64,000 nucleotides of DNA from the human T2T-CHM13v2.0 reference genome, Homo sapiens (GCF_009914755.1 NC_060926.1), one strand, 5' to 3'; shown: positions 776 through 11,799, counted from the first letter of the stretch. A program made the numbers and translations. The notes: generated by a model from the letters alone, not told the origin.

Positions 776-964
776 CAGTAAATGTTGAACTTGCTCAAGA
801 TCACCTTGCCATGAACTTTGTAGAAGTTGCATTTGGGGAGCCTGGATTCTATTGACTGCCAAGAGTTGTCTTTGGATATTGCAATTAGCTACATGAATTG
901 CGGTTCGATTGCTGTAATTGCAAAGGGTGATATCTACTCACTTTTCCAGAAGAAATCCAACAAC
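776..964 (-). other. MAP3K19: MAP3K19 5' exon 3 (189 nt, presumed 5'UTR; carries fossil ankyrin frame with TGA at 938-940)
   Basis: Minus-strand acceptor ttaactaagactgtgtcattttgcag|GTTG at 964/965 and donor CTG|gttag at 776/775; length divisible by 3; gene identity from known head-to-head synteny with RAB3GAP1. Confidence 0.8.
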
Positions 965-1240
965 CTGCAAAATGACACAGTCTTAGTTAAATATTTTTAA
1001 GTACCAACAGTGTCTTCAGAGCTGGGTGGAAAACTGACTTAGGCATGGCTCTGATTCATCGGGATGTGGGTAACTGCTATTTGCCCTTTTTAATTTGGGG
1101 AACAAAAATCTCCATGACATGCATGATTTTTGGATAGTCTTTTTTGCAGGGACTAGAGATCTATGAGTATTGTATGTTAAATCCACACAAAACATTGAAG
1201 TTTTATAACTGTCTATAATCAAAAATACAAAACCAAAGGG

Positions 1241-1412
1241 AGCAGGCATGGTTTTGTGTGCCTGTAATCCCAGCTACTGGGAGGTTGAGGCGGGAGGATC
1301 ACTTGAGCCCAGGAGTTCAAGGCCATCATGCACTATAATCCTACTGTGAATAGCCACTGCACTCTAACCTGGGCAACATAGCAAGATCCTGTCTCTAAAA
1401 AATACAAAAACA
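1241..1412 (+). mobile_element. Fossil Alu monomer (FAM/7SL-derived)
   Basis: Single monomer with gtgaatagccactgcactc 7SL/FAM-type segment; flanking aaaaatacaaaa(c/a)caaag direct repeats. Confidence 0.7.
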
Positions 1413-1559
1413 AAGATGATTCAGGCTTATATATCCTTGAATGTCACAAGTATTTCTGCAAGTGTTTCTAGAAAGAGAGTAAACTCTATTCAATATGGTG
1501 AGGGGACAGACTGCCCAGTTGCATGTTAAGAACTGTCCTTGGTGCTGAGACTGCACCAA

Positions 1560-2330
1560 TGAACAAGACCAGCAGCCAGCCTTTAAAGTATTTGCAGTCT
1601 AGTGAAGAACAGAGACATATTTAAAAAAAAAAAAAAAGGCAATTGCAACATGGGGTGATAAATGTAACAAGAGAAGTGAATACAGGAGGATGATGGGGGC
1701 ACTTCGACAAAATCTATTAAGATATCTTGGAGAGTCTGCGAAGACTTTTTGGAGAAAGTGATGTCTAAGCTGAGACCTGAGGAATCAGACTCAGCCAGGC
1801 AGACTGGGAGAAAGATTGTTCCAAGCAGAGGATACAGTGTGAATAAAGTACAGTGTGTACAAGAGGGCAAGTAATATTCAAAGCTTTGGAAGGAGTTAGG
1901 TATGTCTAGAGCCCAGAATAAGAAAAGGAAGAGAAGGAGATGTGGGTGGAGAAATCAGCTGTGCCTCAGTCCTGAAAGACCTGACAAACCCCTCTGAGGA
2001 GTTAGGGCTGTGTCTTCAGGGCAATAGGCAGACAGTGAAAGATTTTCCTCAGGAAAATGACATAATCAGGTCAGTGTTTTAGAAAATCACTCTGACTGCT
2101 GAAATAGATTGATGTGGGGAAGAAGGGAAGTGGGGAACCAGGGAGAGGACTACCACAGTGGCCTCATGGAGAGACGACAGCGACTGAACAAGAGAAATGG
2201 TAGTGGAGATTTAGTGGCTGAGGGCATAATCTAGGAACACTTAGGAGGTGGAATTAACAAAACATAGCCATTTATTCAATGTGGATGTTAACACTGAGCC
2301 AGAAATCAGGGATAATTCCAAGATACTGTC
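1560..2330. mobile_element. Degenerate L2 LINE fragment
   Basis: Purine-rich L2-like motifs (tctaagctgagacctga, ttttagaaaatcactctgactgc). Confidence 0.55.
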
Positions 2331-2439
2331 TTCAGTGTACTTTTATCTGTCTGCTGTACTGCCACGGCAGACCAGGCCACCATGGTCCCTTGTCTGAAGC
2401 AATGGAACAGCCTTCTCTCCATTTCAAGTGCTTCTGCAT

Positions 2440-3034
2440 GAAACCCACTAGAAAGGCCCAAATCAAAAATTCAGATAACAGCAAGAGTTGGAAAGATGAG
2501 AAGAACTTGGAGCCCTCATACCACCATTTCTGCTGGTGGAAGTGTAAATGGTGCATCCACTTTGAAAAACAGTCTAGTTTGGGAGGCCAAGGTGGGTGGA
2601 TCATGAGGTCAGGAGTTCAAGACCAGCCTGGCCAAGATGGTGAAACCCCATCTCTACTAAAAATACAAAAATTAGCCAGGCACAGTGGCAGGCGCCTGTA
2701 ATCCCAGCTATTCGGGAGGCTGAGGCAGGAGAATTGCTTGAAACCAGGGGGCAGAGGTTGCAATGAGCTGAGATTGCACCACTGCACTCTGGCCTGGGTG
2801 ACAGAGTGAGACTCTGTCTGAAAAAAAAAAAAAAAAAGAAAAGAAAAGAAAAACAGTCTGTCAGTTCCTCAAATGATTAAACATAGAACTCCCCTATGAT
2901 CCAGCAATTCCACTCCTAGGTATGGTACTCAGGAGAAATGAAAACATATACTCACACCAAAATGTTTACAGAAGCATTATTCATAGTAACCAAAAGATGA
3001 AAAGAACCATTTTCTGTCAATGGATTGGATAAAT
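2440..3034 (+). mobile_element. Old L1M 3' fragment (continues at 5411-6170 beyond the SVA), interrupted by Alu 2578-2850
   Basis: L1 3' motifs gatccagcaattccactcctagg, atgctacaacatgaatgaaccttgaaaacattatgctaagtgaaagaagcc; Alu TSD gaaaaacagtct. Confidence 0.75.
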
Positions 3035-8723: not shown

Positions 8724-8811
8724 TATATATACATATGTGTATGTATATATTTGTATGTATATATTTATGTATGTATGTATATATGTATGTATATATGTGT
8801 ATGTATATATT
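8724..8811. repeat. (TATG/TA)n low-complexity repeat
   Basis: Direct inspection. Confidence 0.9.
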
Positions 8812-9036
8812 TAAGCTCTTTTTCCAGACCTCAAGCAATCCTCCCACCTCAGCCTCCCAAAGTGCTGGGATTACAGGCCTGAGCCACCATGACCAGCCAT
8901 GTTCCTGCATAACTTGCTGCTTCTGTTCATTATCATGTTTTTGGGATTCCTCCATTTTGAAACATGAAGTGTAGCTACAGTTTTTCATTTTTAGTGCTAT
9001 CTAGTGTTCCATTAGATAAAAATATATGCCACAATA

Positions 9037-10070
9037 CAGGCACAGTGGTTCTTGCCTGTAATCCCAGCACTTTGGGTGGCCAAGGTGGGTGGATTGCCTG
9101 AGTCTGTCAGGAGCTTGGGACCAGCCTGGGCAACATGGCGAAACCCCATCTCTACTAAAAATACAAAAAATTAGCTGGACATGGTGGTGCACACCTGTAA
9201 TCCCAACTACTTGGGAGACTGAGGCATGAGAATCGCTTGAGCCCAGGAGGCAGAGGTTGCTGTGAGCCGAGATCATGCCACTGAACTCCAGCCTGGGCTA
9301 CCGAGTGAGACTCCATCTCAAAAAAAAAAAAGGTTATGCAAGAGCATATATAGTGTGAGTTTGTTTTTATAATATTCAATACCAGGAAAAAGCAAGTAAT
9401 TACTTAGGCATGGATGCAGAGGTGGCCAGGAAATTATTAACCCAAAATTCAAGATAATGGTTAGCCAGGGTGGGGGATGCAATTCAAGACAGGCATATAC
9501 AGAGAGGGCTTTTGAGGCATGGCAATGTTCTAATTTTTGGCCTGGGTGTTGGGTACACAGGTGCTTGTTTCATTAATTTTCTTTCTTTTTTTTTTTTTTT
9601 TTTAGCATATGTGCTATATTTTATAATTTGTTTAAAAAGCATTCATGGAAAGGAGTCAAAAAAGAAAAAGAGCTTAAAACATAGTCAAGAGAGGCTAATT
9701 GAGGAAGCAAAGGTGACCAGGCAGGATTGAGGGTCCACTTGCATTTAAAGTACCAAGAACTGGCCAGGTGCAGTGGCCCATGCCTGGAATACCAGCACTT
9801 TGTGAGGCTGAGGCGTGTGGATCTCTTGAAACCAAGAGTTTGAGACCAGCCTGGGAAACATGCTGAAACCCCATGTCTCCAAAAAAAAAAAAATTAGCCG
9901 GGCATGGTGGTATGCGTCTGTAATTTCCAGCGACTTGGGAGACTGAGTTTGGAGAATCACCTGAGTCTGGGCAGGTTGAGGCTGCAGTCAGCCCAGATGG
10001 TGCCACTGTACTCCAGCCTGGTGACAGAGTGACCCTGTCTCAAAAAACAAAACAAACAAACAAAAAAACA
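9037..10070 (+). mobile_element. Two sense Alus (9037-9330, 9762-10070)
   Basis: Dimeric Alu sequences with A tails. Confidence 0.9.
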
Positions 10071-10823
10071 AAGTCCCAAGAACTTATAGAGGCATCAACT
10101 TGTGCAGTTGAGTAAAATTTGTCTTTTCCAGCCTAGTTTCCCTATTCTTGCCCTTTCTATTCATGAAGCCTCCCTCTTTGCTGCCTCTCCCCAACTCTAC
10201 ATGCTCATATTGTTGCCACTTTTACCTGAATGCTTAAACAGAACTTTAGAAGTTATGGCACACAATGATATAACTGATGAATAAGACCCAAATGGGTTAC
10301 TTTTTCATTAATGTCTCCATTTAATAAATATTTATTAACCCCTGGCTGGGTCAGGCTCTCTGCTGGTAGCTGGAGATACAGCTAGAACAAAGAGGACAAA
10401 GTCTGCTGCCCTTTTAAGCCTTATTATTCACGTATTTACCCCTGTTTCCCTACTTCCAGGTTTACGTGCATTTGTTAGAGCAAAGCATAAATTTCCAGGT
10501 ACTGATGGAGTTGAGGGTCCATCATGTGGCGCCATTAGACCATTAGCTCCTCGGGGGTGGCATCTGTGTTTGATTCACATCCAGATCCACCATAAAATCT
10601 AGTGATCACCTTGGATATAGCAGGAATATTTGTGGACCGAGTGAGGAAATGAATAGAGATGGTTCCTATCTAGATTTACAGTATCCACCTCCCCATACCC
10701 CACTTTGTGTCTTCAGACATTCTTTCATGGCAATGGGTGATATCACTATTCACAAATATCTCACTCTCAGAATCCTTAGTTTGGAAGACTTTTTATCCTT
10801 GAGCCCAGCATGCCACATGTTAC

Positions 10824-10963
10824 CTCTGTTAGATTTTCCTCTGCTGCAGTAATGAGAGGCGTATTCCACGTCTCTGGGTGCTGAAAGTCAAGGTTTCCGA
10901 GGATGGATTGGACTTCGGTAATATAGTCACAGATGAGTTCCACATCACCTCTTGAAACCACTT
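10824..10963 (-). other. MAP3K19: MAP3K19 5' exon 2 (140 nt; possible longer form from 11019 that includes the ATG at 10997)
   Basis: Acceptor ctgattcattatttcctag|AAG at 10963/10964; donor GAG|gtaac at 10824/10823; overlaps ORF 10776-10997 with ankyrin-like NTPLITAA. Confidence 0.8.
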
Positions 10964-11799
10964 CTAGGAAATAATGAATCAGTTTATTTTTATTCATCTT
11001 GCTAGTTCCACATGATTGCCTTGAAAAGGAACGATTTAATTATATGAGAGCCAGCAAAGCTGTGAGTGGTTCAAATGTAACATATTCTGCCTTTACTGCC
11101 ACCTGTTTCCTTCTTTTATGTATAAAATTCTTATAACAGTTTTAAAGACAATTTTGAAAATAGGGGGAAATGCCGCAATACCACCAGGCTTGGTTCTTTG
11201 TGTACATGCTGAATTAGGAAGAATAATAATTTCACCATTATTTTGGAAGATCTGCTGTGGTAGAGGAGAAGAGAGGATGTATCCACAGTAGAATGGAAAC
11301 AGCACAAGCTTGGAGCCCAGTAGAACCTGGATTTAAATTCCTTCTCCACAGATTACCAACTGTGTGACCACGACCATATGGCTTATCTCTGGGCTGCATT
11401 TACTTATCTCTAAAATGGAAATGATTGTCCCCTCTTCAGAAGGTTGGTAAGGATCTGAAATATGATCTACAGAGGGTTGGCACATTCTACAGGTGAAAAT
11501 TCTTGTTGGTTTTTTTTTTTAGCTTGTTTATTAACCACCTTATACGTATTTCCTTTCTGAAAGTCCTAGCTTCCCAACAATACTATAAGCTCCTCAATAG
11601 CAGGGACATTACATGACTTATCCTTTTGTCTCCTCTGTGATTCTAGCACAGTGGGAATCATTAAGGAGCACAGTGCCCACTGTTCTGGATTTTCCGGAAA
11701 GCCCTAATTTTAAATAACTCATATCAGTTTTCCAAATCATTGAAATATCTCAAATTGCAATTTTGGAGGTCACCGAACTACCCTCTCCTGCATGGAACC

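What the first reader, a model, noticed from the sequence alone, without database searches (positions are those of the whole stretch)
776..10997. Fossil ankyrin-repeat module hidden in the MAP3K19 5'UTR exons
Seen: on the minus strand, 10997-10824 (58 codons from gcaagATG) ends exactly at a phase-0 donor, and 964-776 is a 63-codon phase 0-0 exon. Spliced, they read MNKNKLIHYFLEVVSRGDVELICDYITEVQSILGNLDFQHPETWNTPLITAAEENLTE|VVGFLLEK*VDITLCNYSNRTAIHVANCNIQRQLLAVNRIQAPQMQLLQSSWQGDLEQVQHLL. Known: the ankyrin consensus is G-x-T-P-L-H-x-A-A-x-x-G-x-x-E-V-V-x-x-L-L-x-x-G-A-D-x-N. It is matched across the splice junction, followed by a TAIHVA repeat start and flanked by two RGD/QGD-type capping helices. 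The human MAP3K19 protein is normally described as a C-terminal kinase without ankyrin repeats. Inference: the ancestral MAP3K19 was an ankyrin-repeat kinase (or had an upstream ankyrin protein) whose N-terminal exons were disabled in this lineage but kept as spliced UTR.
Basis: partly seen in the sequence, partly recalled or inferred. Interest (0 to 1): 0.9.

Follow-up and report, generated by a model that had tools for sequence, protein, structure and literature searches.

The report
Dead ankyrin exons in MAP3K19 leader
Two leader exons of the human MAP3K19 kinase gene are the stop-codon-broken start of an ankyrin-repeat domain that other vertebrates still make, a loss that genome annotators had already recorded.

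Summary
On the minus strand, 10997-10824 (ATG plus 58 codons) and 964-776 (63 codons, phase 0-0, one TGA at 940-938) are the first two coding exons of ancestral MAP3K19.

About 80 mammalian MAP3K19 models, gorilla included, start with this sequence. They carry Pfam ankyrin repeats and a C-terminal kinase domain. The same architecture occurs in amphibians and ray-finned fishes.

Human differs from gorilla in codons 1-67 by three changes, all at positions conserved in the other 81 sequences: D9Y, G44W and R67stop.

The next exons lie outside the window. They are intact, identical in protein to gorilla and in frame. In-frame ATGs at codons 103, 141 and 155 therefore read straight into the annotated start (codon 205; 1,328-aa protein).

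The case is already recorded. Mudge et al. [quoted passage not shown] That row does not give the ankyrin identity, the intact gorilla copy or the open frame from Met103.

Verdict: real, correctly read, already known. Interest is modest. The open question is whether humans make a 1,430-aa form from Met103.

The parts
10824..10997 (-). Ancestral coding exon 1 of MAP3K19: ATG plus 58 codons, phase-0 GT donor. It encodes the N-terminal cap helices and the first half of the canonical ankyrin repeat.
   Evidence: 97% identical to the gorilla MAP3K19 X3 N-terminus; 81 hits.
10995..10997 (-). Ancestral start codon (context gcaagATGa). It is present only in alternative transcripts whose exon reaches 11019, where it opens a 66-codon dead-end ORF.
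   Evidence: hub annotation (exon 10824-11019 of other transcripts).
10971..10973 (-). Codon 9 TAT (Tyr), unique to human. The other sequences have D 73, E 7, N 1 of 81. Its first base lies at -10 of the internal acceptor.
10866..10868 (-). Codon 44 TGG (Trp), unique to human. It replaces the Gly of the ankyrin G-x-T-P-L motif, which is G in 80 of 80 aligned orthologues.
10964..10965 (-). Internal AG acceptor (ttatttcctag|AAGTGG) used by NM_025052.5. The exon then starts at 10963, so the main transcript lacks the ancestral ATG.
   Evidence: and hub annotation (exon 10824-10963).
776..964 (-). Ancestral coding exon 2: 63 codons, phase 0-0. It encodes the second half of the canonical repeat, a short TAIHVA repeat and the cap-like helix of the second ankyrin block.
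   Evidence: Identical to gorilla residues 59-121 except for the stop.
938..940 (-). TGA at codon 67, the only stop in the ancestral frame. Other sequences have G 73, R 1 (gorilla), Q 1 and 5 gaps of 81.
   Evidence: Described as 'non-variant premature termination codon' in Mudge et al. 2019 Supplemental Data S1.
830..832 (-). In-frame ATG (Met103, context ccccaaATGc) downstream of the stop. The frame is open from here through the next three exons into the annotated start.
   Evidence: 148 aa open to the end of the stretch examined. The Lontra, Tamandua and Hipposideros models start at this Met.
17646..17908 (-). Non-coding first exon of NM_025052.5, with donor cacag|gtaagc. It carries six of the eight ATGs that precede Met103 in that leader.
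   Evidence: hub annotation.

Best explanation
The two segments are the first two coding exons of the ancestral vertebrate MAP3K19. That protein had an N-terminal ankyrin-repeat domain of about 200 residues (two blocks, roughly residues 14-93 and 108-189), a long poorly conserved linker and a C-terminal STE-type kinase domain. On the lineage to humans, after the split from gorilla, codon 67 became TGA. Two radical substitutions also arose in codons 1-67: D9Y, and G44W in the G-x-T-P-L motif. The ancestral start can therefore no longer produce the ankyrin-kinase protein. In transcripts that keep it, it opens a 66-codon dead-end ORF. The main transcript removes it altogether by splicing an upstream non-coding exon onto an acceptor inside codon 12. 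The exons survive as constitutively spliced 5'UTR. The protein is annotated from Met205, giving a 1,328-aa kinase without ankyrin repeats. Shown here: the homology, the ankyrin identity, the single stop, frame continuity into the CDS and the intact gorilla copy. Inferred: the order and dates of the three changes, the role of the ankyrin domain (a protein-interaction or regulatory module), and which downstream AUG ribosomes use.
For: Homology: exon-1 peptide, 81 of 86 candidates at E<=0.01, nearly all named MAP3K19 and 1,400-1,550 aa long. Ankyrin identity: Ank_2, Ank and Ank_5 above gathering scores at residues 14-93 in gorilla, bat, mouse and opossum, with Pkinase at the C-terminus in gorilla, mouse and opossum. 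Residues 103-224 are identical in gorilla and in the human conceptual reading; they give Ank_2 27.7 bits (cut-off 27.3) and Ank 23.1 (cut-off 21.1). A bat N-terminal fragment matched 357 PDB sequences at E<=0.01; the 60 listed are ankyrin-repeat proteins, best 3.7e-30, with stretches spanning residues 11-160. The human joined peptide matches unrelated ankyrin proteins across the junction, against 0 of 100 shuffles. Age: the opossum 1-210 search listed Ank+kinase MAP3K19 in caecilians, frogs, Polypterus, eel, tarpon, cyprinids, catfishes and others. Constraint: hippo versus mouse, opossum, caecilian, Polypterus and Mugil identity is 85/83/69/53/39% in residues 1-204, against 54/48/30/17/16% in the linker and 95/93/81/76/74% in the kinase. 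Human lesions: Y9 in 0 of 81, W44 in 0 of 80, stop in 0 of 81. Frame continuity: the next exons (window -2000..-1846, -4914..-4799, -7825..-7710) are intact and identical to gorilla 122-250. [quoted passage not shown] The spacing of its four regions matches my exons.
Against: The date rests on one predicted gorilla isoform (X3, 714 aa). No chimpanzee, bonobo, orangutan or archaic sequence could be examined, and no cluster representative named Homo, Pan or Pongo contained exon 1 or exon 3. The excess of changes in codons 1-67 is modest and the boundary was chosen after seeing the data. Human and gorilla differ at 3 of 67 residues there, 0 of 183 in residues 68-250 and 7 of about 612 outside codons 1-67. 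My arithmetic gives P about 0.02 for all three falling in the first 67 of 250 codons, and about 0.04-0.08 against the gene-wide rate. Most orthologue proteins are automatic gene models. 'Kept as UTR' is not fully shown, because the frame from Met103 is open, so codons 103-204 may still be translated.
Confidence: 0.9

Rival explanations
1. The domain is only partly dead. Human mRNAs are translated from Met103 (or Met141 or Met155), giving a protein of about 1,430 aa that keeps the second ankyrin block. Only the first ~102 residues (cap plus two repeats) were lost, and the annotated Met205 start is too far downstream.
For: In the NM_025052.5-like leader the in-frame ATGs at codons 103, 141 and 155 all read without a stop into MSSMPKPERH. 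None of the five candidate starts has a strong context. Residues 68-250 show 0 of 183 differences from gorilla, against 5 of 145 in residues 251-395. Residues 103-224 still pass the Pfam Ank_2 and Ank cut-offs. Models starting at Met103 exist in Lontra, Tamandua, Hipposideros and one unnamed record, and at Met141 in Macaca fascicularis, Pteropus and Nannospalax. The 31 codons just upstream of the annotated start have a PhyloCSF score of 651 (PMC9789052 supplementary file 5).
Against: The same table gives ribosome-profiling coverage 0.0 and proteomics count 0.0 for that extension, although the gene is expressed mainly in lung and testis. Eight upstream ATGs precede Met103 in the main leader. 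GENCODE curators inspected the locus and kept the downstream ATG. Zero differences over a short human-gorilla distance is weak evidence of constraint.
Confidence: 0.3
2. The remains now act as a regulatory leader. In transcripts starting near 11019, the ancestral ATG drives a 66-codon upstream ORF that ends at the TGA and lowers MAP3K19 output, through poor re-initiation or nonsense-mediated decay.
For: ATG1 has A at -3 and A at +4. Its ORF ends 105 nt before Met103 and far upstream of many exon junctions. RefSeq lists transcripts with exon 10824-11019 (hub annotation).
Against: No expression or translation data were available here. The main transcript lacks this ATG. This is a consequence of the lesion, not evidence of selection for it.
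Confidence: 0.15
3. The TGA is a rare allele or an error of this one assembly, and most humans encode the full ankyrin-kinase protein.
For: Only one haploid human assembly was read here. NM_025052.5 lacks ATG1, so its CDS annotation says nothing about the TGA.
Against: GENCODE calls the stop 'non-variant' on GRCh38, a different assembly. Two further human-unique radical substitutions sit in the same 67 codons. No human-named model with this N-terminus appeared.
Confidence: 0.03
4. The exons belong to a separate upstream ankyrin gene, and the orthologue models are erroneous fusions.
For: Some fish and bat records hold the ankyrin part alone under other names (252-aa Hipposideros 'PSMD10-like, partial'; Pseudorasbora 'ANKRD35').
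Against: Dozens of independent annotations give one ORF, among them a mouse record with no 'predicted' or 'isoform X' label (1,515 aa). In human the exons are spliced into the curated MAP3K19 mRNA (hub annotation). The frame runs on into the kinase CDS.
Confidence: 0.02

Closest known systems
GENCODE 'pseudoexons' within protein-coding genes (Mudge et al. 2019, Genome Res; 32 genes, e.g. KIF25)
   Same: Part of the ancestral CDS at the 5' end is disabled in human while the gene still encodes a shorter protein. MAP3K19 is itself one row of their Supplemental Data S1.
   Different: [quoted passage not shown] The MAP3K19 exons are still spliced into the main mRNA, and only one stop separates them from an otherwise open frame.
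Kinases with N-terminal ankyrin repeats (ILK, TNNI3K)
   Same: An ankyrin-repeat module precedes a protein kinase domain. The ILK and TNNI3K architecture is taken from a passage of bioRxiv 10.1101/2024.10.01.616093.
   Different: Those are TKL-group kinases with the repeats close to the kinase domain. MAP3K19 is an STE-group MAP3K with a poorly conserved linker of about 1,000 residues between them. That preprint names only TNNI3K and ILK as sharing an ankyrin domain and does not mention one in YSK4/MAP3K19.
Human-lineage gene inactivations (unitary pseudogenes; CMAH and MYH16 recalled from memory, not from a call)
   Same: A disabling mutation on the human lineage in sequence conserved across vertebrates.
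   Different: Here only an N-terminal domain is lost, not the gene. Whether chimpanzee shares the lesion is not known.
Whole-gene loss of MAP3K19 in the cetacean stem lineage (Huelsmann et al. 2019, passages)
   Same: Lineage-specific decay of the same gene.
   Different: Cetaceans lost the whole gene. Human keeps the kinase.

Membership tests
Ankyrin repeat (Pfam PF00023 Ank, PF12796 Ank_2 and relatives) | Profile match above the curated gathering score in the intact orthologous sequence | tested here: met
   Gorilla: Ank_2 49.8 bits (cut-off 27.3), Ank 38.9 (21.1), Ank_5 40.0 (27). Bat, mouse and opossum give similar scores at residues 14-93.
Ankyrin repeat (Pfam PF00023 Ank, PF12796 Ank_2 and relatives) | Pfam profile match in the human window sequence itself | tested here: inconclusive
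   Exon 2 alone, with X at the stop, gives Ank_4 17.5 bits against a cut-off of 22.7 (E 0.0053). Exon 1 alone gives nothing. The canonical repeat is split by the junction, and the joined peptide could not be sent to the Pfam tool.
Ankyrin repeat (Pfam PF00023 Ank, PF12796 Ank_2 and relatives) | Similarity of the joined human peptide to unrelated ankyrin-repeat proteins, with a shuffle control | tested here: met
   Scores of 82.7, 75.4, 57.9 and 44.0 bits against four non-MAP3K19 ankyrin proteins. The repeated matches centre on residues 44-87. 0 of 100 shuffles gave a hit.
Ankyrin repeat (Pfam PF00023 Ank, PF12796 Ank_2 and relatives) | Stacked helix-loop-helix repeat fold | not tested
Only sequence matches to solved ankyrin proteins are available.
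MAP3K19 orthologous coding exons 1-2 | Sequence identity to the N-terminus of MAP3K19 proteins of other species | tested here: met
   97% to gorilla, 74-91% to other mammals over all 58 residues; exon 2 is identical to gorilla except for the stop.
MAP3K19 orthologous coding exons 1-2 | Same reading frame continues through the following exons into the kinase CDS | tested here: met
   The splice phases fit, and there is no stop from codon 68 to codon 250 or beyond.
Pseudo-exon (ancestral CDS lost inside a gene that still codes) | Coding in other species, with a disabling lesion in human | tested here: met
Pseudo-exon (ancestral CDS lost inside a gene that still codes) | Lesion fixed (not polymorphic) in human | not testable with these tools
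   Reported as 'non-variant' by Mudge et al. 2019 Supplemental Data S1. No population data were available here.
Human-lineage-specific loss | Lesion absent from the nearest outgroups | tested here: inconclusive
   Gorilla X3 has R at codon 67, D9 and G44. Old and New World monkeys have G at codon 67. No chimpanzee, bonobo or orangutan sequence was reachable.

The most novel reading that the evidence does not exclude
Human MAP3K19 is not simply ankyrin-less. The main mRNA carries an intact in-frame ORF from Met103, so human cells may make a 1,430-aa kinase with a remodelled half ankyrin domain. It would keep the second block (residues 103-204) and lack the N-terminal cap and first two repeats. 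That would make the annotated 1,328-aa N-terminus 102 codons too short, and would give human and mouse versions of a lung-fibrosis and COPD drug target different regulatory N-termini.
Probability: 0.3. Interest if true: 0.5.

Novelty: already known. Interest (0 to 1): 0.3.

Why it matters
MAP3K19 is studied as a target in pulmonary fibrosis and COPD, partly in mouse models (abstracts in the listing; passages). The NCBI mouse protein (1,515 aa) has the conserved ankyrin domain, while the annotated human protein (1,328 aa) has none. After the kinase domain, this domain is the best conserved part of the protein across vertebrates. Regulation or binding partners could therefore differ between human and mouse.

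None of the MAP3K19 papers I opened (passages from PMC4856290, PMC5147866, PMC6930295, PMC10462844, PMC12100293 and PMC6760925) mentions the domain or its loss. The record sits only in a supplementary table. It also shows how a multi-exon 5'UTR can be a recently disabled coding region. For a scan looking for new biology, however, this case is already explained.

Tried and rejected
There is therefore no fold or repeat count from a model.

3. Dating the stop within apes failed. The exon-1 and exon-3 peptide searches returned gorilla X3 as the only hominoid-named representative. Clustering at 90% identity may hide others, so this says nothing about chimpanzee.

4. Pfam on the separate human exon peptides gave nothing for exon 1 and a sub-threshold hit for exon 2, because the canonical repeat is split by the splice junction.

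5. Literature:
- 'MAP3K19 + ankyrin' returned 8 papers, none with both terms in title or abstract. I opened one, where 'ankyrin' refers to ANKRD1.
- 'YSK4 + ankyrin' returned 1 preprint, where 'ankyrin' refers to TNNI3K and ILK.
- 'YSK4 + human-specific' returned 0 papers. 'MAP3K19 + human-specific' returned 5, none relevant by title or abstract; in the one I opened the phrase refers to an siRNA.
- 'MAP3K19 + chimpanzee' returned 4 papers, none relevant by title or abstract.
- Searches were loosely framed. They gave nothing on MAP3K19 itself, but surfaced the Mudge et al. paper.
- Files 1 and 8 of that paper's supplements were not searched.

6. Stop-codon readthrough or selenocysteine at the TGA was considered and not tested. 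Nothing in the calls points to it.

7. Skipping of the 63-codon exon would restore the frame from ATG1. Such models exist in Saccopteryx and Alexandromys, but I have no human transcript evidence, so it remains a possibility only.

8. The idea that D9Y strengthened the internal acceptor (G to T at -10, inferred from the amino acids) was not scored with a splice-site model.

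
Full report
**The observation**

On the minus strand, 10997-10824 begins at gcaagATG, reads 58 sense codons and abuts a GT (gtaaca). 964-776 follows ttttgcag, reads 63 codons with one TGA (window 940-938) and abuts gttagt.

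**What the exons are**

The 58-residue peptide was searched against longer proteins. It found 81 proteins at E<=0.01 among 86 candidates. Nearly all are named MAP3K19, are 1,400-1,550 aa long and start with this sequence. Gorilla isoform X3 is 97% identical; monkeys, a lemur, rodents, bats, carnivores, ungulates and afrotherians are 79-91% identical; marsupials are 74-78% identical.

Pfam places Ank_2, Ank and Ank_5 matches, all above their gathering scores, at residues 14-93. This holds for gorilla, a bat fragment, mouse and opossum. Gorilla, mouse and opossum also have Pkinase at the C-terminus.

A region search with opossum residues 1-210 gave 186 proteins at E<=0.001, of which 120 were listed. 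It extends the ankyrin-plus-kinase architecture to caecilians, frogs, Polypterus, eel, tarpon, cyprinids, catfishes and other teleosts. No bird or reptile name appeared among the 120 listed, and I draw no conclusion from that.

After the kinase domain, the ankyrin region is the best conserved part of the protein. Identity of hippopotamus to five other species:

| Compared with | Residues 1-204 | Linker | Kinase |
|---|---|---|---|
| Mouse | 85% | 54% | 95% |
| Opossum | 83% | 48% | 93% |
| Caecilian | 69% | 30% | 81% |
| Polypterus | 53% | 17% | 76% |
| Mugil | 39% | 16% | 74% |

**The human sequence still reads as ankyrin**

Pfam on the separate exon peptides is weak. Exon 2 with X at the stop gives Ank_4 at 17.5 bits against a cut-off of 22.7, and exon 1 gives nothing. 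The reason is that the canonical repeat straddles the junction.

I joined the two exons in a script, with X at the stop. The 121-residue peptide matched four unrelated ankyrin proteins at 44-83 bits. The repeated matches centre on residues 44-87. None of 100 shuffles gave a hit.

A bat N-terminal fragment matched 357 solved-structure sequences at E<=0.01. The 60 listed are ankyrin-repeat proteins, and the stretches span residues 11-160. Residues 103-224 pass the Ank_2 and Ank cut-offs on their own.

The domain therefore has two ankyrin blocks, roughly residues 14-93 and 108-189. I could not obtain a structure model.

**What is broken in human**

I compared the human reading with 81 orthologue N-termini. 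Three human residues are unique, and all three fall at conserved positions:
- Tyr9: the others have D 73, E 7, N 1.
- Trp44: G in 80 of 80. This is the Gly of the G-x-T-P-L motif.
- The stop at codon 67: the others have G 73, R in gorilla, Q 1 and 5 gaps.

Gorilla has D9, G44 and R67. All three changes therefore arose on the human side after the gorilla split, or on a human-chimpanzee stem. If gorilla's Arg codon is CGA, the stop is a CpG transition. That is an inference, because I had no ape DNA.

**Following the frame out of the window**

The window's own assembly could be searched. The next three exons lie at window coordinates -2000..-1846, -4914..-4799 and -7825..-7710. They are intact, have fitting splice phases and are identical in protein to gorilla residues 122-250. 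The TGA is therefore the only stop in the ancestral frame.

In a leader built from the NM_025052.5 exons, in-frame ATGs at codons 103 (window 832-830), 141 and 155 read without a stop into MSSMPKPERH. Eight other ATGs with short ORFs precede Met103.

The published size of 1,328 aa and the orthologue lengths of about 1,530 aa place the annotated start at Met205. So does a published table in which the 31 codons directly upstream of the annotated start occupy the GRCh38 interval that corresponds to codons 174-204.

The main transcript lacks the ancestral ATG altogether. Its second exon starts at 10963, at an acceptor inside codon 12 (hub annotation). Transcripts whose exon reaches 11019 keep that ATG, which then opens a 66-codon dead-end ORF.

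**Signs of decay, and of its absence**

Human and gorilla X3 differ as follows:

| Residues | Differences |
|---|---|
| 1-67 | 3 of 67 |
| 68-250 | 0 of 183 |
| 251-308 | 1 of 58 |
| 309-395 | 4 of 87 |
| 411-461 | 0 of 51 |
| 462-694 | 2 of 233 |

By my arithmetic, the chance that all three differences in the first 250 codons fall in the first 67 is about 0.02. Against the gene-wide rate, the excess has P of about 0.04-0.08. Both figures use a boundary chosen after seeing the data.

The pattern fits relaxed constraint upstream of the stop and no visible decay downstream of it. It does not prove either.

**Already in print**

A supplementary table of Mudge et al. 2019 lists four PhyloCSF regions on GRCh38 chr2:135024648-135040536, minus strand, top rank 124. 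I read this row and the table header of PMC6886504 Supplemental Data S1.

[quoted passage not shown] The category is 'pseudo-exon'.

The spacing of the four regions (about 9.9, 2.6 and 2.8 kb) matches my four exons. The second region is 162 nt, the length of codons 68-121. The main text counts such pseudoexons in 32 genes (passage).

A second paper lists the 31 codons upstream of the annotated start with PhyloCSF score 651. It gives ribosome-profiling coverage 0.0 and proteomics count 0.0 (PMC9789052, supplementary file 5).

The core of the finding is therefore known. That row does not state three things:
- The domain is ankyrin. This is visible in the database domain annotations of orthologues, but no searched paper describes it.
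- Gorilla is intact.
- The frame is open from Met103.

**How it most likely works**

Ancestrally, the ankyrin domain would serve as a binding or regulatory module for the kinase. This is inferred from what ankyrin repeats generally do; nothing here tests it.

In human, the full-length form cannot be made. The protein starts at a downstream AUG. The dead exons ride along as 5'UTR, and in minor transcripts they add an upstream ORF.

Which AUG is used is open. I give the annotated Met205-only picture about 0.6, and substantial use of Met103, 141 or 155 about 0.3.

**Verdict**

Novelty is 'already known', and interest is modest at 0.3. The open point worth a test is the possible 1,430-aa human proteoform, together with the date of the stop among apes.

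Noticed in passing
window 36096-36198 (-): Rfam snoU13 match at 75.9 bits (gathering score 46), full length. It agrees with the annotated LOC124906178 in a RAB3GAP1 intron.
   Followed up: no
window 5715-5862 (+): Rfam Metazoa_SRP match at 73.8 bits (gathering score 70) in only 148 bases, inside the MAP3K19 intron. It is most likely a 7SL-derived (Alu-type) repeat and not an SRP RNA gene.
   Followed up: no
window 10964-10973 (-): The human-unique Tyr9 codon (TAT, where the others have Asp) puts a T at -10 of the internal acceptor used by the main transcript. This lengthens its pyrimidine run (ttatttcctag). It may have favoured the splice that removes the ancestral ATG. This was not scored.
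   Followed up: partly
proteins P0093, P0061, P0113, P0116, P0140: Some mammalian gene models skip the 63-codon exon in frame (Saccopteryx X3, Alexandromys). Others begin with an out-of-frame reading of that exon (MWLIV..., in Myotis and Ovis) before joining ASEEF. So the 5' end of this gene is variably spliced or variably modelled across species.
   Followed up: partly
L006 (G000:C2:135421238-135421951, outside the window): Gorilla residues 461-697, nearly the whole kinase domain, align to one uninterrupted stretch of human DNA. The kinase domain therefore sits largely in a single exon.
   Followed up: no
literature and databases: The mouse UniProt entry E9Q3S4 is quoted at 147,916 Da, which is the short form (PMC12100293 table). 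The NCBI mouse protein is 1,515 aa with the ankyrin domain. The mouse N-terminus is therefore annotated inconsistently between resources.
   Followed up: no
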